The notes beneath the pieces are model-generated. The model did not search any database. It was not told the DNA's origin and worked only from the letters and a program-made list of their open reading frames with translations. Positions 6,905-52,400 of a stretch of 64,000 nucleotides of DNA are shown here, in pieces (within the stretch, counting starts at the first letter, position 1; every line of letters starts with the position of its first letter). Origin of the DNA: an uncultured Candidatus Saccharibacteria bacterium (GTDB lineage: Bacteria > Patescibacteriota > Minisyncoccia > Phycocordibacterales > UBA918); assembly GCA_964402035.1 (NCBI GenBank), contig CAYOAM010000002.1:27280-91279 (forward strand), in the 5' to 3' direction. A program made the position numbers and the translations under genes.

Positions 6905-6962
6905 ATAGCCATATTCTACCCCAAAGTAGCCTAAAAGCCGCTATATGTTTGCTAGTATTGCC

Positions 6963-6991
6963 TTGACGGTAGGCCCTCTCTCTGCTATGCT
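6963..6991 (+). promoter_or_regulatory. Sigma70-like promoter for rpmG: TTGACG-17 nt-TATGCT
   Basis: Hexamers read directly at 6963-6968 and 6986-6991; ATG follows 10 nt after the -10. Confidence 0.4.
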
Positions 6992-7001
6992 TTAGCCCAT
7001 T

Positions 7002-7175
7002 ATGTCACAAGATAGACTCATAAAACTCGTGTCCGTAGGCGACGAAAAAGGCCTGGGCAAGGGCCACGTGTACTACACCACCAAGAACCGCAAGAAGCTC
7101 GCGGACCGAAAATTTGCGTTTAAAAAATTCAATCCCGTCTCGAAGTCCCACACGGTCTACAAAGAAAAGAAATAA
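7002..7175 (+). CDS. rpmG: 50S ribosomal protein L33 (non-zinc type), 57 aa
   Basis: Below the ORF-track size cut-off and found by hand translation: MSQDRLIKLVSVGDEKGLGKGHVYYTTKNRKKLADRKFAFKKFNPVSKSHTVYKEKK. This aligns with E. coli L33 ([21 protein letters not shown]...[22 protein letters not shown]). Confidence 0.8.
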   Translation: MSQDRLIKLVSVGDEKGLGKGHVYYTTKNRKKLADRKFAFKKFNPVSKSHTVYKEKK

Positions 7176-7176
7176 C

Positions 7177-7209
7177 AAAAAAGACCCTCACATTGAGGGT
7201 CTTTTTTAC
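7177..7209. terminator. Bidirectional intrinsic terminator between rpmG (+) and the membrane-protein gene (-)
   Basis: AAAAAAGACCCTCA-CAT-TGAGGGTCTTTTTT: 10-bp perfect stem flanked by an A-run and a T-run. Confidence 0.65.
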
Positions 7210-7221
7210 CAACCAACCATC

Positions 7222-15981: not shown

Positions 15982-16297
15982 TGAAAAACGACAAAAAATA
16001 ACTGATTCTCAAGGTGTCAAGGAACCTAATACGGAGTAAAAGCGCTGAAAATCCCTTGGATGCGAGGCATTGATAAAGTTCGGAGCTAGACGTATGTGGT
16101 ATACGGAGAGTGAGTACTGGACTCAGTAATGAAGCAGGTAAGGATTATTATAACTTCTGAAGAGAAAACCTACACGTAAAAAACATCAAAAATAACTGGT
16201 ATGCGAGGCGCTACCGAGGAGTGCAGCGAGGCGTATAAGAATACGACGAGCAAGCGACGAGAGTAGCAACAAAGCAGATCTTTATTTTTGACGTTTT

Positions 16298-17113
16298 TTA
16301 TCCGAAAAAGACGAGGGCGATGACAAAACAGGCAAGCAAGATCCTATACCAAATAAAAGGCCAAAGGGTATTATTGCGCATAAACTGCATCATAAAATGC
16401 ACCGCGCCTAGCCCCACAAAAAAGGCAGTGATAGCTCCCACAGAAACCATAAGCCACGAGACAGCACCTGGTGGCTCACGTAAAAGATCAAGTAACATTT
16501 TAAGCCCGGCACCCGTCATAACCGGTATTGCCAACAAAAATGCAAAACGTGCAGATTCATAGCGAGAAAGTCCCAAGATCAAACCTCCAGAAATAGCGCT
16601 CCCCGAGCGACTCATACCAGGGATCAATGCCAGCACCTGAAACCAGCCGATCTTCCAGCCCAACCGTGGTGTAATAACCGCGTGTGAACCTCGATGTGCG
16701 TGCACGTATTCCGCATATGCAAATAACATAGAGCCCGCAATCAGTACACCGGCAACAAGAAGCGGTTGTCGAAACACATTTTCCATAAATGTTTTGAGTA
16801 GGATACCCAACACCACAGCAGGCACGGTACCAATCGCGAGTGCAGAAATAATGGCACTATCACGATCATCAACCGGCAACCGTCCGAGCTTGCGCATCAT
16901 GGTCTGGAGCAATATGCCAATGTCGTGCGAAAAGTAAATGACCACCGCGGCTGTCGTCGCGAGATGTAACACGGCATCAAATGCCAACTCATTGGATGTA
17001 TGCTCTGCAGAAAAAAGCTCACGAACCAATATCAAATGCCCCGTTGAAGAAACGGGGAGAAACTCCGTGATTCCCTGGACAAAACCGAGGACTATAGCCA
17101 TTAAAAGGTCCAT
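16298..17113 (-). CDS. uppP: Undecaprenyl-diphosphatase
   Basis: MDLLMAIVLGFVQGITEFLPVSSTGHLIL is the UppP/BacA N-terminal signature; eight hydrophobic segments. Confidence 0.85.
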   Translation of the reverse strand: MDLLMAIVLGFVQGITEFLPVSSTGHLILVRELFSAEHTSNELAFDAVLHLATTAAVVIYFSHDIGILLQTMMRKLGRLPVDDRDSAIISALAIGTVPAVVLGILLKTFMENVFRQPLLVAGVLIAGSMLFAYAEYVHAHRGSHAVITPRLGWKIGWFQVLALIPGMSRSGSAISGGLILGLSRYESARFAFLLAIPVMTGAGLKMLLDLLREPPGAVSWLMVSVGAITAFFVGLGAVHFMMQFMRNNTLWPFIWYRILLACFVIALVFFG

Positions 17114-21102: not shown

Positions 21103-21354
21103 ATGCACACCATGAAAATTTCTGCGGAACTTTTCTTCGAGAAATTTGGGAACAAGATTGCCTACTACAAAGTCGGCACAGGGTCCCATATTATTCCAAC
21201 AATCGAAAGGGCGATTGGCGAGGCTCTCAGACTCGGGAGCACGGTGCAGGTCCGCCACAGCGAAGTGACAATTGTGGTCAACCCGAAATCGAGTTTCACT
21301 CCGATCTATGAATCGTGGGGAGTGGCAAATCCCGGCGACGTTGTCGGCCCCTGA
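21103..21354 (+). CDS. Small hypothetical protein (about 80 aa)
   Basis: AAGGA 8 nt upstream of the second ATG (MKISAELFF...); followed by a strong terminator. Confidence 0.35.
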   Translation: MHTMKISAELFFEKFGNKIAYYKVGTGSHIIPTIERAIGEALRLGSTVQVRHSEVTIVVNPKSSFTPIYESWGVANPGDVVGP

Positions 21355-21356
21355 TC

Positions 21357-21410
21357 CCCACAAGAAAAGTCCCCCCAAGGGACCTACACTCTTGTGGGGC
21401 TTTTCTTTTG
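21357..21410 (+). terminator. Intrinsic terminator
   Basis: CCCCACAAG...CTTGTGGGG stem followed by CTTTTCTTTTG. Confidence 0.55.
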
Positions 21411-21439
21411 CTTATCAAAACGTCACAGACTGAATTAGA

Positions 21440-21597
21440 GTGAAATGCAATGGTGTAAGAGAGACATTGCACAGCCGCGCGCAGCATGGTGCCTGCCGTC
21501 TTTTGTCGCGAAGCGACTACGGCAGGACCGCGCGGCGAGCATAGTACAATGCACGCAGGTGCATTGATACGCGTCTCTGTCATACTATTGCATTTCC
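21440..21597. repeat. Structured intergenic element, copy A: outer long imperfect helix (GAAATGCAAT...ATTGCATTTC) enclosing conserved core 21474-21541 and a 3' hairpin CAATGCAC-GCAG-GTGCATTG
   Basis: The core is about 90% identical to 39794-39862; internal stems GCCGCGC/GCGCGGC, CTGCCGT/ACGGCAG and GTCGC-GAA-GCGAC were read directly. Confidence 0.7.
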
Positions 21598-21605
21598 TAA
21601 AAAAA

Positions 21606-22880
21606 TTAGTACGACTTCAGCCTTCTTGCCTTATCGTGCAAACGAATCTTCTCTAAAGCTTTGGCTTCGATTTGGCGAATACGTTCACGAGTCACGCCAA
21701 ACTCCTTCCCCACTTCTTCGAGCGTATGGTACGTACCATCAAGAAGACCATGACGCATCTCGAGGATTTTGCGCTCCTTTTCTGAAAGTGTCTCCAAAAT
21801 CTCTTTTACCTGATCTGCGAGGATGCGGTGTGCGACTTCCTGATCCGGAAGCAATATTTTATCATCAGAGATAAAATCAGAAAGCCGTGAACGATCGTCA
21901 TCATCTCCAATAGGTGTTTCAAGTGAAATAGTATCCTGGCTGATTTTCTCAATCTGGTACACCTTCTCTACTTCAATACCCATCTCCGTTGCAATCTCTT
22001 CGGGCATCGGATCACGGCCCAAATCCTGCGACAGACGGCGCGAGACTTGCTTGTACTTTGCCATGGTCTCGACCATGTGTACCGGAATACGGATCGTGCG
22101 CGACTGGTCGGCGAGCGCTCGAGTGATAGCCTGACGAATCCACCACGTCGCGTAGGTAGAAAACTTGAAGCCTTTTGTAAAATCGAATTTATCGACAGCT
22201 TTAAAGAGACCCAAATTTCCTTCTTGGATAAGATCAAGAAGCGTAAGGTCGGGACTTCGTCCGACATACTTTTTTGCAATAGAAACCACCAAGCGGAGGT
22301 TGGCACGCGCCAAGAGATTGCGCGCTTCGGTATCGCCATCGACAATACGTTTTGCAAGATCTCGCTCTTCAGCACCAGAAAGAAGTGGATACTGACCAAT
22401 CTCACGCAGATACATCTGAATAGAATCATACCCGCTTTCACTTCGGCGATAGATGTTGCGCTTGTCCAACAGCCCATCAGAGATCTCATTTCCCAACATA
22501 CCGCCGCTTTCAAGGACATCGATACCCGCAACTGCAAGTCGTTCATAGAGAGACTCCAAAAGCTCTACATTGTTTTCTACCGTCGGAAACGATTTCAAAA
22601 TTTCATCGTAGGTTACGTATCCCTTCTCGCGCGCTTTTGCGATGAGTGAATTTGCCTTGACTTCATTTTGCTTCCCCACCTTGGTCTCAACACCCTTTTT
22701 CACCGGAGCCGCTTTTTTGGGAGCCGCCTTGCGTGCAGGAGCCTTTTTTGCAGACGCACGAGCAGGCGCCGACTTCTTTTTAGGCACCACTTTCTTTAGC
22801 ACCTTTTTAGGTGCTTTCCGCGCAGGTTTCTTTTTTTGTGGAGCAGGCACTTTCTTCTTTTTTATTGTTTTTTTGGCCAT
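21606..22880 (-). CDS. rpoD: RNA polymerase sigma-70 factor RpoD with ~75-aa K/A/P-rich basic N-terminal tail
   Basis: Region 2 ([13 protein letters not shown]), region 3, and region 4 ([21 protein letters not shown]). The N-terminus begins [26 protein letters not shown].... Confidence 0.9.
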
Positions 22881-31752: not shown

Positions 31753-31800
31753 CAAAACAGACTCACATCTGTGGAGAGGAGAATTTGGGCACAATAATAG

Positions 31801-31860
31801 CCGCAAAGTGTACCCTTTGCGGCCTTGCCCAGAGGCTGCGCTTAGTGCGCAGCCTCTGGG
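31801..31860 (-). terminator. Tandem hairpins (CCGCAAAG...CTTTGCGG; 14-bp perfect CCCAGAGGCTGCGC...GCGCAGCCTCTGGG) downstream of the 111-aa gene
   Basis: Read directly; T-rich tract follows on the - strand. Confidence 0.5.
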
Positions 31861-31875
31861 CCCTGATTTCTCTTG

Positions 31876-46300: not shown

Positions 46301-46556
46301 AATACCTGTGGTTGTTGCCGGCATCATTGAAGTCTCACGCGAAATCATGACCAAAAAAGGTGACCGCATGGCATTTGTGACAGTCGGTGACGCAACAGGA
46401 AGCATTGAGGTCGTCCTCTTCCCAAGCGTACTTGAAACCAAACGCGAACTCGCACTTCCACAGACCTGTGTGGCCATCAAGGGCCGCCTCTCGCACCGCA
46501 ATGGTGAACCAAGCATCGTCGCCGAAGCGATCAAAGCGCTTGAGAAAGATGTTTGA
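43365..46556 (+). CDS. dnaE: DNA polymerase III alpha subunit
   Basis: PHP domain FTHLHTHSHYSLLNALP; polymerase core and OB-fold regions across 1063 aa. Confidence 0.9.
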   Translation: MSDIPFTHLHTHSHYSLLNALPTIDELVAAAKKEGMTTLALTDNGNLYGAIEFYQTCMAEGIKPIIGIDAYLAPRTLFDKEPNDKPHARLVLLALNTDGYKALIQLVTDSYVHGFYYRPRLDREHIKAQSKNLIAIIPSFSGETSHALKNDDQEKTHAALSWYKDVFGDRLYLELTHHPEIPGHMELMRKIAALGKETNTPCMAAHDVYYLEKGDHRARETLQKIQTGATIDTTSGFDEQTEDFSFISTKLAHTYFKDNPEALLNTHNIAERCSITIELKKWYFPNFIIASGRTPDEELRQLAENGLRWRGLAGTEDEMTRLNYELDIIKMKGYSKYFLVVADLINEARKRKILTTIRGSVAGSLVTYSLGITTVNPLDYKIPFERFLNPERPSAPDIDMDFADNRRDEMIDYVRQKYGKDNVAQIGTFGTMMARAAVRDVARALGHPYGTGDRIAKLIPMGSQGFPMTIEHALEIEPDLKKLYKQDADTKDIIDLAKKIEGKARHISVHAAGVVIAPTPLVNFVPVQPDPKGGKMITQYDMHAVGEDGVGLLKFDFLGIRNLSILADAVKRVSKIHGIDIDIENVPVDDTKTFEILARGETMGLFQLGGSGMTHFLKELKPSSIHDINAMVALYRPGPMESIPQYIERKHNPRLITYLDPRLKDVLNRSYGVVTYQDDVLMISIKLAGYSWLQADTLRKAMGKKIPAVMEAEKAKLLKGFAEFGKLPTEKAEKLWSLIEPFAAYGFGKAHAASYGRVAYQTAYMKANYPIEYMSAVLTAESGDVETVSMIIDECERMKISILPPDINESFSDFSVVPNTNTIRFGLASIKNFGEGVAEAIIDERKAHGPFTTLEDFLGRIPIKSFNKKSLEALIMTGALDRYGERSVLLHNTETLLSYIKEMQAQKLAAQDSLFGGAETSSVRSINLEQIPPVSVAQKLLWEKELLGVYVSGHPLDAYKEALKKRPTILSVRNDEREGIPVVVAGIIEVSREIMTKKGDRMAFVTVGDATGSIEVVLFPSVLETKRELALPQTCVAIKGRLSHRNGEPSIVAEAIKALEKDV

Positions 46557-48547: not shown

Positions 48548-48616
48548 AAACTGAAAGAAATTGTCACACTGTGCGTACTAATAAGTGGACGTACATGTAG
48601 CAAGCTTATATACAAC

Positions 48617-48693
48617 ACAAACACCGCGCGCCTCATGAGGCGCGCGGTGTTTGTGTAGAAAAATCCTCACCAGCAATATAGCTGACGAGGATT
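48617..48693. terminator. Two consecutive hairpins between thrS and the 179-aa gene (the second overlaps the 179-aa gene stop)
   Basis: The first is ACAAACACCGCGCGCCT-CATG-AGGCGCGCGGTGTTTGT with a 17-bp stem; the second is AATCCTC...GAGGATT. Confidence 0.55.
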
Positions 48694-49290: not shown

Positions 49291-49454
49291 ATTTGAGATG
49301 TGTCTCGGCGTCTCCAAGAGTGCTCAAAAATCAGAGATATGCGCGGCGCGAGCGAGGAGTGAACCGAGCCATATTTGATATATGGTGAGGGAACACCGGG
49401 GCTCGCAACAATGCAAATCTCGATTTTTGACACTCGCCCAGGATTTTAGAATGT

Positions 49455-52400
49455 TTAGGAAATAGCTTTGAGTGCCTTAATAACAGCCAAACGAACAGCC
49501 GCAACCTCATCACTATATGTACCATCAATAGCAGATACAAGTGCAAGTACCGCAGCCTTCAACTTTTCGTCAGAAATGTGTGCTGATGCACGTACGAGCA
49601 TATCAGAAGTATTATTTCCTGCATGACGAGCACGTACAACGCCATCGAGCGCTTCTGCAGCATCTGCGATAGCAATCATGGGATTGTTTCCAAGAAGTGC
49701 GTATGCGAGTGCAGTGTTGCCAGTCACTATGGCTTCAGCAAGCGTCGTTGCCCCTACTTCCTCCACAACCGGCGAAGCTTCAATTGAAGCAACTGCAGCT
49801 GATGTTGTCTGTGGGAAAAGCGCCATCACACGCTCACGATTAAGGATGATCCATCCATCTTCACGTGGGTACGATGCCTTAGCTCGCTCAATAAGATCCT
49901 GAAGCATGGTTGATGCCTCTTCAGTTGTATCACTTTGATCAATCATGAGACGCAGTGCATCGCTTGAGAGCAATACATTGTGACCATGTGCGATATTTTC
50001 CAAATGAGAAATGGCATCCTGCATATCTCCTTCCGGAGCTTCCTCATCGTTTTCATTTTCTTCCTCATCACGATCAACATCTTCGTCATCATGCGCAGCA
50101 GTAACTACCTGATGTGCATATGATCCTGTTGGAAGATTTGATGGAACCTCTGCATGTACCGCTTTTACCTGTGTGGCACCAGGAGCACTAAAGGCAACTG
50201 CAGCTGCGGTATGCACAGGTGCCGGTGTCGCTACATGAGTATGCGCATGATATTCATCATGTGGGATCATCGAACCAAACGTATAATTTGATGCAGCTGC
50301 TTGCGATGCGGGAAGTGTGAACCCAAATACTGAGCCACGCTTGATAGCCAGCACATACGCGATCGCGAGACTCCAGAGAGTAAGCAGTGTGTAGAAGAGA
50401 CCGGTGAGGAATGGACCTGCGTCAAATCCCGTGTACGGGATATCGGTAAATGAAAGCGAACTCAGTTGATTACGATCAGTAAGTACCGTAAACCCACCCA
50501 CCTTCACCTCAACTGTACAGGTATCCTTGCGGCTTCCCTTTGACACGGTGAGCGTGTACTTGGTCGTCTTTGTCGGCTTCACGGTCACTGATCCTTCATC
50601 AGTCTTGTCATCGTTGGTGGTTTCATAGACATCGTTTGGACCAATCTTGAGCTCAGATCCACGACGAGTTTTCCATGAAAGTTTTACCGAATCACCAGCA
50701 CTGATAGTCTTTTTAGATGCTGTGAAAGCCGAACAGACAGGCTTATTTGAACCACCGCCCCCACCTCCTCCACCACCGCCACCAGTTTCTACACTGACTG
50801 AAGCATTACAACTTACCGTCTCGCTTCCACGCTTTGCAGTGAGGACGTAGGTCTTGTTTTCATTGACAGTAATACTCTGTGTCCCATCAGGAGTCACGGT
50901 ACCAATACTATTGTCGATCGTTACTGAGTCAGCATTGGTGGTATTCCAAGTCATCGTTGCAGTATTCCCTTTTGAAACTGAACTTGGTGAAATACTGAAT
51001 GCATCACAGCTAAGTTTTGGCGTTTCAGAGGGATTAATATCGACAAATACGTTACAGGTCGCACTCTGGTTTCCTTTTGTCGCAGTGAGGACAAACGTCG
51101 TGTCCGAAGTAACATTCTTTGATGTAGACCCATCGACTGCTACAGCACCAACACCGTTGTTGATTGATACTGAATCAGCGTTTGAGGTATTCCATGTGAA
51201 TACAACATCACCGGCTGCAGTCAAAACATTTGGTGATGCGGTAAAGCTGTCACAACTTGGTGCGGCTGTTTGTGTTGCAACCGTAATCGTCTGTACACAT
51301 TGTGTACTCTTATTACCTTTTGTAGCGGTGAGAATATAGGTCACCGTTTGCTGTACGTTTACTGAAAGTGAACCATTGAGCGCGACTGATCCGTTGCTAT
51401 TATCAAGAGTCACTGAGTCGGCATTGCTCGTCGTCCAATTGAGGGTAGAATTTCCACCACCAAAACCATGGCTTGCAGGCGTTGCCGAGAGTGCACATAC
51501 AGGTGCTGGATCTGCGACTGGATTCACGACTAGCAATGCTTCACAGTTCACGGTACCACCTGCTCCGGTAAAGCTTCCTTTGTAGGTATGTGTTGAAGCA
51601 ACCTCAGGAATGACCACAAATGAGCCAGTGCCTGCTGTCGTTTGTTCAACAATACTCTCCACACCGTTTACGACTTTCTTTAATACGATATTTGAAACAT
51701 TTTCAGAAGTCCAATTGACACGTGATGATCCTCCGAGCGTGATAGCTGACGGAGAAACCGTGAGCGTACATGCGGGAGCAACAGCGCCACCAACAGTGAC
51801 TGCTGCATTACAATTTACCGACCCACCAGGACCTGTTGCGGTAAGCGTAAAGGTCTTGCCACTAGAAACTGATACCAAGTGTGATCCATCAAGCACGACT
51901 GATCCAACACCCTCACTAATAGAAACCGCAGTTGCATTGTCGGTCGTCCAAGAAAGTATCGTATTTCCTCCACCAAATGGAAGACTGTTGGGTGACGCAA
52001 CAAGTGTACAGGTTGGTGCAAGTGGTGCCGCAGCAACGGTAACCGGAGCTGAACACGAAGCGCTACCACCCGGACCAGTGACGGTCAGTGTGAATGTTTT
52101 AGAAGAAGCGACAAATATAGATCGTGAACCATTCGTTGCTACTGATCCAATAGTCTGGTCAATCGTTGCAGCGGTAGCATTGTTTGAAGTCCACGAAAGG
52201 TTGGTGTTGCCACCAGAGTGTGAGAAAGAAGAAGGGCTCGCCGAAATAGCACAGGTCGGAGCCGGTGTGAGTACGACATCTTCATGAGGACCACCTACAT
52301 CGAGGTTGGGGCCATTGTCGATGGGAGAGTTGTCGGGTGCGTCAGTGTTGGTATCGTCAGGGTTGCTATTTCCGCCACCCTCTCCAGCACCGGGACCATC

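What the first reader, a model, noticed from the sequence alone, without database searches (positions are those of the whole stretch)
21440..21597. Conserved ~68-nt core with covarying outer and side helices, copy A of two, between convergent genes
The core 21474-21541 (GCCGCGCGCAGCATGGTGCCTGCCGTCTTTTGTCGCGAAGCGACTACGGCAGGACCGCGCGGCGAGCA) recurs at 39794-39862 with about 90% identity. Both copies fold the same way: P2 GCCGCGC/GCGCGGC, P3 CTGCCGT/ACGGCAG, and apical hairpin GTCGC-GAA-GCGAC. In copy B the P2 stem is GTC(AC)GCGC/GCGCGAC, so a C-G pair is replaced by U-A, which is a compensatory change. Each copy also has a 3' side hairpin in the same position but with unrelated sequence: CAATGCAC-GCAG-GTGCATTG here and CAGCACCC-TGCT-GGGTGCTG in copy B. 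Each is enclosed by a long outer helix of unrelated sequence (imperfect, about 30 bp here; 23-bp perfect in copy B). A conserved core with sequence-divergent but structure-preserving peripheral helices is the signature of a structured RNA family, or of a REP/BOX-like modular element. In copy A the outer helix needs two G-T pairs on the + strand, which would be C-A mismatches on the - strand, hinting at a + strand RNA. Both copies sit between convergent 3' ends: small ORF / rpoD here, and Nudix / rnc for copy B. Nothing like it is annotated in the ORF track apart from spurious ORFs sharing the peptide PAVVAS.
Basis: seen in the sequence. Interest (0 to 1): 0.78.

Follow-up and report, generated by a model that had tools for sequence, protein, structure and literature searches.

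The report
Conserved branched hairpin downstream of rpoD
A ~155-base three-armed fold sits just after the stop codons of rpoD and the RNase III gene in an uncultured Parcubacteria-like bacterium, and two relatives keep the same fold after rpoD with different sequence, so it is probably a small new structured-RNA family of unknown function.

Summary
Two ~155-nt elements (21442-21596 and 39763-39917) share a core that is about 90% identical. Their closing helices (24 and 23 bp) and side hairpins are unrelated in sequence but keep their pairing.

No Rfam family matches. No other copy was found in the window, in about 90 kb from relatives, in the two large public contig collections, or among phages and plasmids.

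The same architecture does occur directly after the rpoD stop codon in two related Patescibacteria contigs, L036 and L048 (covariance-model E-values 3e-7 and 4e-5). Across the four sequences, all 147 modelled pair cells form standard pairs, and 24 of 45 pairs show changes on both sides. L036 and L048 are 85% identical in the element, but only 56% identical at rpoD third codon positions. That points to purifying selection.

The best reading is a lineage-restricted structured RNA: a three-way junction closed by a long helix that is long enough for RNase III. It lies in the 3' region of rpoD and rnc and probably acts in 3'-end processing, stability or insulation. The strand, transcription and function are all unproven.

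It is not an intrinsic terminator and not a REP, BOX or MITE-type repeat. An excised trans-acting small RNA, or a module nested in terminator hairpins, remains possible. Interest is moderate.

The parts
21442..21596 (+). Copy A, whole element. It lies 9 nt from the rpoD stop codon (21606-21608) and 87 nt from the stop of the 83-aa ORF. The strand given is the better-folding one and is not proven.
   Evidence: (154 bits)
21442..21465 (+). Copy A closing helix P1, 5' arm (GAAATGCAATGGTGTAAGAGAGAC). Only the inner GAGAGAC is shared with copy B.
   Evidence: (I7: 24 nt, 83% complementary)
21573..21596 (+). Copy A closing helix P1, 3' arm.
   Evidence: I7
21466..21473 (+). Junction J1 (ATTGCACA; the next base, G at 21474, opens P2). 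The consensus is TTGCRCAG, and L036 has TTTGCAG. Its TGC pairs with the GCA at 21539-21541.
21474..21536 (+). Conserved arm. P2 is 21474-21481 paired with 21529-21536. The 5' bulge CAGCATGGTG (21482-21491) carries the GCAYGGT motif. P3 is 21492-21499 paired with 21519-21526. P4 is 21505-21509 paired with 21513-21517, with loop GAA.
21547..21566 (+). Side hairpin P5 (CAATGCAC-GCAG-GTGCATTG). Its sequence is unrelated to P5 of copy B but the pairing is kept.
   Evidence: 7 of 10 pairs changed on both sides
39763..39917 (+). Copy B, whole element. It lies 5 nt from the rnc stop codon (39923) and 61 nt from the NUDIX stop codon (39701).
   Evidence: (162.5 bits); identical on L015 and L017
39763..39785 (+). 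Copy B closing helix, 5' arm. With 39895-39917 it forms a perfect 23-bp helix.
   Evidence: I3
39895..39917 (+). Copy B closing helix, 3' arm.
   Evidence: I3
39794..39857 (+). Copy B conserved arm. P2 is 39794-39801 paired with 39850-39857 and has one unpaired position. P3 is 39812-39819 paired with 39840-39847. P4 is 39825-39829 paired with 39834-39838, with a GGAA loop and one U-G pair.
39868..39888 (+). Copy B side hairpin P5 (CAGCACCC-TGCTG-GGGTGCTG).
21352..21417 (.). Separate hairpin region between the 83-aa ORF and copy A. It scores as terminator-like on the + strand (21383-21398 plus a T-run) and on the - strand (21385 to 21367 plus a T-rich tail). An rpoD transcript would therefore cross copy A before reaching it.
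   Evidence: (I13)
39711..39732 (+). Canonical hairpin plus T-run terminator of the NUDIX gene, upstream of copy B.
21606..22880 (-). rpoD (primary sigma factor). Copy A and its orthologues in L036 and L048 sit next to its stop codon.
39923..40615 (-). rnc (RNase III). Copy B sits next to its stop codon.

Best explanation
The element is a lineage-restricted structured RNA of a small Parcubacteria-like (Patescibacteria) clade. It is a three-way junction. A long closing helix (P1, 22-25 bp) encloses two arms. One is a sequence-conserved arm (P2-P3, plus P4 in this genome) with a conserved 5' bulge, GCAYGGU. The other is a side hairpin (P5) whose sequence is free to vary.

It has been inherited at the 3' end of rpoD, and in this genome it is duplicated at the 3' end of rnc.

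The proposed mechanism has three steps:
1. The element is transcribed as part of the convergent 3' regions, because no terminator separates it from the rpoD or rnc stop codon.
2. The closing helix is long enough (at least two helical turns) to be an RNase III substrate or a block to 3' exonucleases. It would therefore set or protect the mRNA 3' end and insulate the two convergent transcription units.
3. The conserved junction and bulge nucleotides are a recognition module for a trans-acting factor.

**Shown here:** the fold, the covariation, the position next to the stop codon, conservation above the neutral expectation, and the absence of any known family.

**Inferred only:** that it acts as RNA, on which strand, RNase III cleavage, and any effect on expression.
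For: **Shared core and fold**
- The core is shared at 90.8% identity (E 1e-16), and it is the only real intergenic repeat in the window.
- Both copies fold far better than shuffled sequence, with z-scores of -7.2 and -5.2.

**Members in relatives**
- A covariance model built from A and B finds one strong hit in about 58 kb of relatives: L036 4860-4973, 39 bits, E 3e-7. It starts 6-14 nt after the rpoD stop codon.
- The refined model also finds L048 directly after rpoD, E 4e-5. That hit is truncated by the contig end.

**Covariation**
- Across the four sequences, all 147 pair cells form standard pairs, against 34-47% when the partners are slid.
- 24 of 45 pairs changed on both sides, and 0 of 500 shuffles reached the observed values.

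**Selection**
- L036 and L048 are 85% identical over 96 nt of the element, including 24 of 25 positions of the closing arm.
- rpoD third codon positions in the same two contigs are only 56% identical, and DnaG is 69% identical at the protein level.
- A and B show a mosaic of conserved islands (inner P1, J1, P2-P4, CGAGCA, TGAT) and saturated but compensated segments (P5, outer P1). That pattern fits selection better than a single recent copying event.

**Linkage to rpoD**
- The neighbour on the far side differs: an 83-aa ORF in the window, an unrelated 265-aa gene in L036.
- The rpoD stop-codon junction is kept in both.

**RNase III**
- rnc is present in the genome.
- The helices of 23-25 bp meet the known length requirement of RNase III. 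This last point rests on established knowledge and was not tested here.
Against: - No transcript data were available.
- Paired inverted repeats look the same at the DNA level, so covariation alone does not prove RNA.
- The strand evidence conflicts. Energies favour the strand antisense to rpoD and rnc by 3.5-9 kcal/mol, and G-U pairs outnumber A-C mismatches about 7 to 1. The position next to the stop codon favours the sense strand.
- There are only four instances from three genomes, and the alignment was fitted to the model.
- The element is absent from the same site in several relatives. L037, L038, L042 and L043 have a simple hairpin after rpoD. L046 has a 66-nt rnc-NUDIX spacer.
- The L036/L048 core differs from the A/B core in the sequences of P2 and P3 and lacks P4.
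Confidence: 0.45

Rival explanations
1. The element is a stand-alone or excised trans-acting small RNA made from the + strand, antisense to rpoD and rnc. The unconserved closing helix would be a processing stalk cut by RNase III, as for rRNA precursors. Cutting would release the conserved ~110-nt core, which binds a protein. An RNA-polymerase- or sigma-associated, 6S-like role is conceivable given the rpoD linkage.
For: - The + strand folds better in A, B and L036 by 8.1, 3.5 and 8.9 kcal/mol, with balanced G+T content.
- That preference runs against the window's overall trend. GC skew is -0.075, and many spacers fold better on the - strand.
- The modelled pairs contain 6 G-U and 0 A-C.
- The core sequence is conserved between A and B while the closing helix is free to vary.
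- Size (135-155 nt) and layout are loosely 6S-like: a closing stem, an open junction with a hairpin on its 3' side, and a terminal stem with an asymmetric loop.
Against: - No promoter-like site lies upstream on the + strand.
- No 6S match, or match to any other Rfam family, appears even at E up to 10.
- The fold is a three-way junction rather than a rod with a central bubble.
- L036 lacks P4 and is only about 135 nt.
- The constant feature across genomes is the junction with the rpoD stop codon, which points to a role in cis.
- The model alignment was built on the + strand, so the G-U count leans that way.
Confidence: 0.2
2. The core is a non-autonomous mobile or selfish module that inserts into the apex of long terminator hairpins. 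The core would be the element, and each closing helix would be the pre-existing hairpin of the target site.
For: - Two copies about 90% identical sit at unrelated loci in one genome.
- Both lie in 'safe' spacers between convergent genes.
- Distribution among relatives is patchy.
- This genome has many long intergenic palindromes that could serve as targets. One example is a perfect 42-bp palindrome at 48615-48656. Others have 16-29-nt arms.
- The closing arms are unique to each locus.
- Other closing-helix elements with unrelated interiors exist at 43140-43320, at about 49318-49432 and in L041.
Against: - There are no target-site duplications, and the conserved terminal repeats amount to no more than a covarying 7 bp.
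- P5 differs completely between A and B, with compensating changes, while flanking islands are conserved. A recent transposition of the whole block would not produce that pattern.
- No transposase gene lies nearby.
- No further copies were found in the window, in about 90 kb of relatives, in the public collections scanned by pattern, or among spurious-ORF peptides.
- L036 and L048 keep the element, including its arm, at the same site under apparent purifying selection.
Confidence: 0.13
3. The element is a DNA-level feature: nested palindromes that form cruciforms or single-strand hairpins. They would either be bound by a DNA-binding protein or be neutral products of template-switch 'palindrome growth', with no RNA role.
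For: - The pairing is symmetric, so both strands fold.
- Copy B's perfect 23-bp arms, and other perfect palindromes in the window, look like products of template switching.
- No transcript evidence exists.
Against: - Mismatches in the helices are almost all G-T on one strand, which matters only for RNA.
- Unpaired junction and bulge nucleotides are conserved across genomes.
- Sequence is conserved above the neutral expectation in L036 and L048.
- Neutral palindromes would not persist at the rpoD stop codon across lineages whose DnaG is only 69% identical.
Confidence: 0.1
4. One reading: this is just a duplicated intergenic intrinsic terminator.
For: - The element lies between convergent genes.
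- Relatives carry a simple terminator hairpin at the same place.
- In A and L036 the ends of the closing helix read GGAAA...UUUCC, which is faintly terminator-like.
Against: - No T-run follows the closing helix on either strand. The terminator scan flags only the neighbouring hairpins, plus one marginal 5-pair hairpin inside copy B's core, and does not flag the closing helices.
- A simple terminator does not explain the 110-nt branched interior, with its conserved unpaired nucleotides and covariation across genomes.
Confidence: 0.07

Closest known systems
RNase III-cleaved 3' hairpins and processing stalks (phage lambda sib retroregulator; rRNA precursor stalks)
   Same: - A long, near-perfect helix of more than 20 bp is formed by sequences flanking a functional region.
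- It lies in a transcribed 3' region.
- Its sequence is free to vary as long as it pairs.
- rnc is present in the genome, and copy B sits directly next to it.
   Different: - Cleavage has not been shown.
- The enclosed RNA is a small ~110-nt three-way junction, not an rRNA.
- sib is a simple hairpin with no conserved branched core.
REP/BIME, ERIC, BOX and Correia (nemis) intergenic repeats
   Same: - They are structured, about 100-150 nt long, and sit in transcribed spacers at gene 3' ends.
- Correia element hairpins are RNase III substrates.
- The layout looks modular.
   Different: - Those families have conserved terminal inverted repeats and tens to hundreds of copies.
- Here the arms are unique to each locus and only the interior is conserved.
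- Only two copies were seen in 64 kb, and none elsewhere.
Bidirectional intrinsic terminators
   Same: - The position is the same: between convergent genes, directly after a stop codon.
- Relatives have a plain terminator hairpin at that site.
   Different: - There is no U-tract after the helix.
- The interior is 110 nt, branched and conserved.
- Separate canonical terminators lie beside both copies.
6S RNA
   Same: - The size is 135-155 nt.
- It has a long closing stem, an open junction and a terminal stem with an asymmetric internal loop.
- It is genetically linked to the primary sigma factor gene.
   Different: - There is no Rfam 6S match.
- The fold is a three-way junction, not a central bubble.
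- Two copies share a core but have unrelated closing stems.
- The terminal stem is short in L036.
Retron msr-msd non-coding RNA
   Same: Outer inverted repeats (a1/a2) of variable sequence enclose several hairpins.
   Different: There is no reverse transcriptase gene next to either copy. The neighbours are rpoD, an 83-aa ORF, NUDIX and rnc.

Membership tests
Any Rfam 15 family | A covariance-model score at or above the family's gathering threshold | tested here: not met
   There are no gathering-level hits in the whole window. At E up to 10, only generic hairpin matches appear, 12-18 bits against thresholds of 35-70.
Intrinsic (Rho-independent) terminator | A G+C-rich hairpin followed within 0-2 nt by a U-rich tract | tested here: not met
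   The scan flags the neighbouring hairpins at 21383-21398, 21385-21367 and 39711-39732, plus a marginal 5-pair hairpin inside copy B's core (39806-39819). It does not flag the closing helices. By reading, the sequences after the helices are CTAAAAAAA / ACTCTAATTC for copy A and GATTGTCACC / TACCTCACGC for copy B.
REP/BIME, ERIC, BOX or Correia-type repeats and MITEs | Terminal inverted repeats conserved between copies | tested here: not met
   The arms of A, B and L036 are not significantly similar (shuffle p 0.03-0.35). Only the inner 7 bp are shared between A and B, and one of those pairs covaries.
REP/BIME, ERIC, BOX or Correia-type repeats and MITEs | Many dispersed copies per genome, and target-site duplications | tested here: inconclusive
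   There are two copies in 64 kb and none in the public collections searched by pattern. No direct repeats flank the conserved block. The rest of the 281-kb source contig could not be fetched.
6S RNA | A match to a 6S covariance model, and a rod-like fold with a large central bubble | tested here: not met
   No 6S hit at E up to 10. The predicted and covarying fold is a three-way junction.
6S RNA | Binds the sigma-70 holoenzyme and templates product RNA | not testable with these tools
   This needs biochemistry.
Retron msr-msd | An adjacent reverse transcriptase gene | tested here: not met
   Pfam on the neighbours gives sigma-70, NUDIX, RNase III and a UvrD/PD-(D/E)XK helicase. The 83-aa ORF has no family match.
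Hammerhead ribozyme | A three-way junction with the conserved CUGANGA and GAAA core motifs and a cleavage triplet | tested here: not met
   Copy B contains CUGAUGAG at 39885-39892, but copy A has UUGAUACG and L036 has nothing comparable. There is no Rfam hammerhead hit.
RNase III substrate (sib-like retroregulator or processing stalk) | An intramolecular helix of about 20 bp or more in a transcript | tested here: met
   Copy B has 23 bp, all perfect. Copy A has about 24 bp with two G-U pairs. L036 has about 23 bp with three G-U pairs. Transcription is inferred from the absence of a terminator between the stop codon and the element.
RNase III substrate (sib-like retroregulator or processing stalk) | Cleavage by RNase III, with an effect on the 3' end or on stability | not testable with these tools
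   This needs RNA end mapping or an in vitro cleavage assay.
Integron attC site | RYYYAAC / GTTRRRY core sites at the ends, within a cassette array beside intI | tested here: not met
   By reading, the arms lack these boxes. The flanking genes are core housekeeping genes.

The most novel reading that the evidence does not exclude
The conserved core is a previously unknown small RNA specific to the candidate phyla radiation (CPR). It would be excised by RNase III from a variable processing stalk, and it is genetically tied to rpoD. It could be a functional analogue of 6S RNA that binds RNA polymerase or sigma factor, or a new catalytic or protein-scaffolding RNA, present in two paralogous copies in this genome.
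Probability: 0.15. Interest if true: 0.75.

Novelty: new member of a known kind. Interest (0 to 1): 0.5.

Why it matters
Patescibacteria have tiny genomes and almost no characterised regulatory RNA. The element is a noncoding structure kept under selection next to the primary sigma factor gene, and it is duplicated next to the RNase III gene. It could therefore be a handle on how these organisms form or control mRNA 3' ends, or it could be a new small RNA.

The practical value is modest. The family is small (four instances in three genomes), and its function is not yet testable without transcript data from uncultured organisms.

Tried and rejected
**Searches that found nothing**
- Pattern scans for P3 and its flanks (GGTGCCTGCCGT N8-28 ACGGCAGGA). 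GTDB representative genomes gave 14 hits and JGI metagenome contigs gave 18. All were chance matches without core-like flanks. Viral contigs gave 0.
- blastn against phages and plasmids found nothing.
- I concatenated the six-frame translations of both cores and searched 5.8 billion proteins, hoping to catch spurious ORFs called over other copies. Nothing scored at E <= 1.
- Exact look-up of the window's RpoD failed twice, so the rest of the 281-kb source contig could not be read.
- The literature search returned nothing relevant.

**Ideas rejected or left open**
- The weak third hit at 51627 lies in coding sequence and is chance.
- Hammerhead: CUGAUGAG occurs only in copy B.
- A loop-junction pseudoknot: no pairing is conserved in all members.
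- Homology of the closing arms between A and L036: not significant.
- Homology between this element and the L039/L040 block after rpoD, or the L041 element: not alignable and not found by model R2.
- L041 against L042 as a filled-site/empty-site pair: synteny breaks at the stop codon, so the comparison is uninformative.
- Replication-strand mutation bias as the cause of the G-U excess: not supported by the spread of strand preferences across spacers, but not excluded.

Full report
**1. What is in the sequence**

Reading the window confirms the finding. Copy A spans 21442-21596 and copy B spans 39763-39917.

A 19-nt and an 18-nt probe from the core each hit exactly these two places, against chance expectations of 0.01 and 0.05 hits. 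A third, 3-mismatch hit at 51627 lies in coding sequence and is unrelated. An all-against-all blastn of the window's spacers finds this pair (65 nt, 90.8% identity, E 1e-16) and nothing else of note.

It runs for about 115 nt, from GA(G/A)AGAC to GTCT(C/T)T, and so includes the inner 7 bp of the closing helix.

Outside that block the closing arms are unrelated in sequence:
- Copy A has 24-nt arms that are 83% complementary, with two G-T pairs, one A-C mismatch and one G-G mismatch.
- Copy B has 23-nt arms that are perfectly complementary.

Both copies fold as described:
- a closing helix, P1
- a short TGC/GCA pairing
- a P2-P3-P4 arm with a 10-nt bulge on its 5' side
- a side hairpin, P5

The minimum free energies are -83.1 and -73.6 kcal/mol, with z-scores of -7.2 and -5.2. 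RNAalifold on the two copies gives 45 pairs, 10 of them changed on both sides.

**2. Context**

- The RpoD and RNase III homologues are named as coming from Patescibacteria, Parcubacteria or Kaiserbacteria MAGs.
- The window comes from a 281-kb MAG contig that I could not retrieve.
- Pfam confirms rpoD, rnc, NUDIX and a UvrD/PD-(D/E)XK helicase as neighbours. The 83-aa ORF beside copy A has no family match.
- Both copies end 5-9 nt from the stop codon of the minus-strand gene: the rpoD stop at 21606 and the rnc stop at 39923.
- The plus-strand neighbours have their own hairpin plus T-run terminators between themselves and the element, at 21383-21398 and 39711-39732.
- The closing helices are not followed by T-runs on either strand, and the terminator scan does not flag them.
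- A hairpin that looks like a terminator in the rpoD direction lies beyond copy A, at 21385 to 21367. An rpoD transcript should therefore cross the element.

**3. Known families**

Rfam 15 gives no gathering-level hit anywhere in the 64 kb. Around copies A and B and the L036 element, it gives only generic sub-threshold hairpin matches. There are no tRNA genes in the window. Phage and plasmid collections have no match.

**4. More members**

Pattern scans of GTDB representative genomes, JGI metagenome contigs and viral contigs returned only chance matches. I therefore reached relatives through the flanking proteins instead.

A covariance model built from A and B (R1) scores 154 and 162 bits on its own training sequences. 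Its next-best score in the window is 20.6 bits. In about 58 kb from relatives it gives one clear hit: L036 (GCA_021733405.1), 39.1 bits, E 3e-7, starting 6-14 nt after the rpoD stop codon.

L036 has the same architecture but mostly different sequence:
- a closing helix of about 23 bp
- junction TTTGCAG
- P2 GGCAAACG/CGTTTGCC, with the bulge GCATGGT
- one hairpin, CCCGAGC-TTTA-GCTCGGG, standing in for P3
- junction CGAAAC
- a 12-bp side hairpin

The refined model (R2) also recognises L048 (Logan SRR23592399). That hit again lies directly after rpoD and is cut off by the contig end (32 bits, E 4e-5).

On the four-sequence alignment:
- All 147 pair cells are standard pairs, against 34-47% when the partners are slid by 1-3 columns.
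- 24 of 45 pairs changed on both sides.
- None of 500 shuffles reached the observed values.
- The caveat is that the alignment was fitted to the model and holds only four sequences.

Nucleotides that do not vary in any sequence that has them (at least three sequences) include CAG in J1, GCA.G.T in the bulge, GA after P2, and the inner GA/GTC of P1.

**5. Selection**

L036 and L048 are no closer to each other than either is to the window. DnaG is 69%, 69% and 66% identical across the three pairs, and RpoD is 88-90% identical. Even so, their elements are 85% identical over the 96 nt that can be compared, including 24 of 25 positions of the closing arm. rpoD third codon positions in the same pair are only 56% identical.

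P5 differs between L036 and L048 by compensated changes. This is the signature of purifying selection on a noncoding element.

The gene on the far side of the element differs between the window and L036, so the element travels with the rpoD 3' end.

Between A and B the pattern is a mosaic: conserved islands separated by segments that are saturated but still pair. That fits old paralogues under selection better than one recent copying event. Partial gene conversion cannot be excluded.

**6. Absences**

The element is not universal.
- After rpoD, L037, L038, L042 and L043 carry only a simple hairpin.
- L039 and L040 share a different conserved ~110-nt structured block followed by a bidirectional terminator.
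- L041 has a 29-bp closing helix with an unrelated interior.
- The closest retrievable rnc relatives (76-77% identical) lack copy B. L046 has a 66-nt spacer with a plain terminator.
- R2 finds nothing further in about 87 kb of relatives or in the window.
- A six-frame peptide search for spurious ORFs over other copies found nothing.

**7. Strand**

The strand antisense to rpoD and rnc (window +) folds better:

| Element | Advantage of the + strand (kcal/mol) |
|---|---|
| Copy A | 8.1 |
| Copy B | 3.5 |
| L036 | 8.9 |

- G+T content is balanced in all three.
- The modelled pairs contain 6 G-U and no A-C. My tally over the full helices is about 7 to 1.
- The window as a whole does not favour the + strand. 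GC skew is -0.075, and many spacers fold better on the - strand.
- Against this, the constant positional feature is the junction with the stop codon of the minus-strand gene.
- I regard the strand as unresolved. Both strands are probably transcribed, since the element lies between convergent genes.

**8. Mechanism**

My best explanation (confidence 0.45) is a lineage-restricted structured RNA element of the rpoD and rnc 3' regions.
- The closing helix is at least two helical turns long, and the genome encodes RNase III. The helix would act as an RNase III site or a block to exonucleases. That would define or protect the 3' end and insulate the convergent transcription units.
- The conserved junction and bulge would be recognised by a trans-acting factor.
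- The fold, the covariation, the position and the selection are shown here. RNA-level action, cleavage and any effect on expression are inferred.

The rivals are:
- an excised or independent trans-acting small RNA made from the + strand, possibly 6S-like (0.20)
- a selfish module nested in terminator hairpins (0.13), which this genome's many long palindromes make plausible
- a DNA-level palindrome (0.10)
- a plain duplicated terminator (0.07)

**9. Comparison and verdict**

The element works most like RNase III-processed 3' hairpins or processing stalks. In its location it resembles REP, ERIC and Correia repeats. It fails the defining tests for those repeat families (conserved terminal repeats; copy number was inconclusive), for intrinsic terminators (a U-tract), for 6S RNA, for retron RNAs, for hammerhead ribozymes and for attC sites.

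It is best filed as a new, small candidate structured-RNA family of a Parcubacteria-like clade. Interest is moderate, at 0.5.

Noticed in passing
window 43140-43320: A third long-closing-helix element: 28-nt arms enclosing two hairpins with 19-nt arms (one perfect, one 89% complementary). It lies between rnhB (42511-43128, -) and dnaE (43365-46556, +). MFE is -96.7 kcal/mol on the + strand (z -12.3) against -79.1 on the - strand. Its sequence is unrelated to A and B, and models R1 and R2 score it at only 21 bits. It is present on L015 (same species) and absent from L047.
   Followed up: partly
window 31779-31872: A closing helix plus two hairpins (9 bp, and 15 bp perfect) in the 740-nt trmD-rpoB spacer. 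MFE is -62.4 kcal/mol, z -6.6. R2 scores it 23 bits on structure alone.
   Followed up: partly
window 48615-48656: A perfect 42-bp palindrome (21-nt arms, no loop) between convergent genes. Several other intergenic hairpins have 16-29-nt arms. Long palindromes therefore seem to be the normal inter-gene hairpin in this genome.
   Followed up: no
window ~49318-49432 and 16177-16300: Two more spacers with ~19-20-nt inverted arms around 75-86 nt of interior. Both interiors contain CGAGGAGTG. Whether that is a real shared motif was not tested.
   Followed up: no
L039 11318-11440 and L040 3920-4025: These two relatives share a different conserved ~110-nt structured block. It starts at the rpoD stop codon and is followed by a canonical bidirectional terminator. 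It folds better on the strand antisense to rpoD (-52.8 against -44.1 kcal/mol for L040).
   Followed up: partly
L041 5792-5962: A 29-bp closing helix begins right at the rpoD stop codon. It encloses about 113 nt unrelated to the A/B core and is flanked by a tandem GGATTAAAGG repeat. L042 (RpoD 96% identical) has only a simple terminator, but the synteny differs after the stop codon.
   Followed up: partly
L048 3287-3382: The Logan contig ends inside the element. This may be an assembly break at the inverted repeat, in which case such elements could be under-represented in short-read assemblies.
   Followed up: no
window 1-64000: The 64 kb contain no tRNA gene and no Rfam family at gathering score, although several spacers of 200-540 nt are strongly structured (for example 6909-7221 at -96.6 kcal/mol on the - strand).
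   Followed up: no
window 40655-41605 (-): The gene upstream of rnc carries both NusB and NUDIX domains, according to the Pfam hits recorded for the same gene on L015 and L016. This is an unusual fusion.
   Followed up: no
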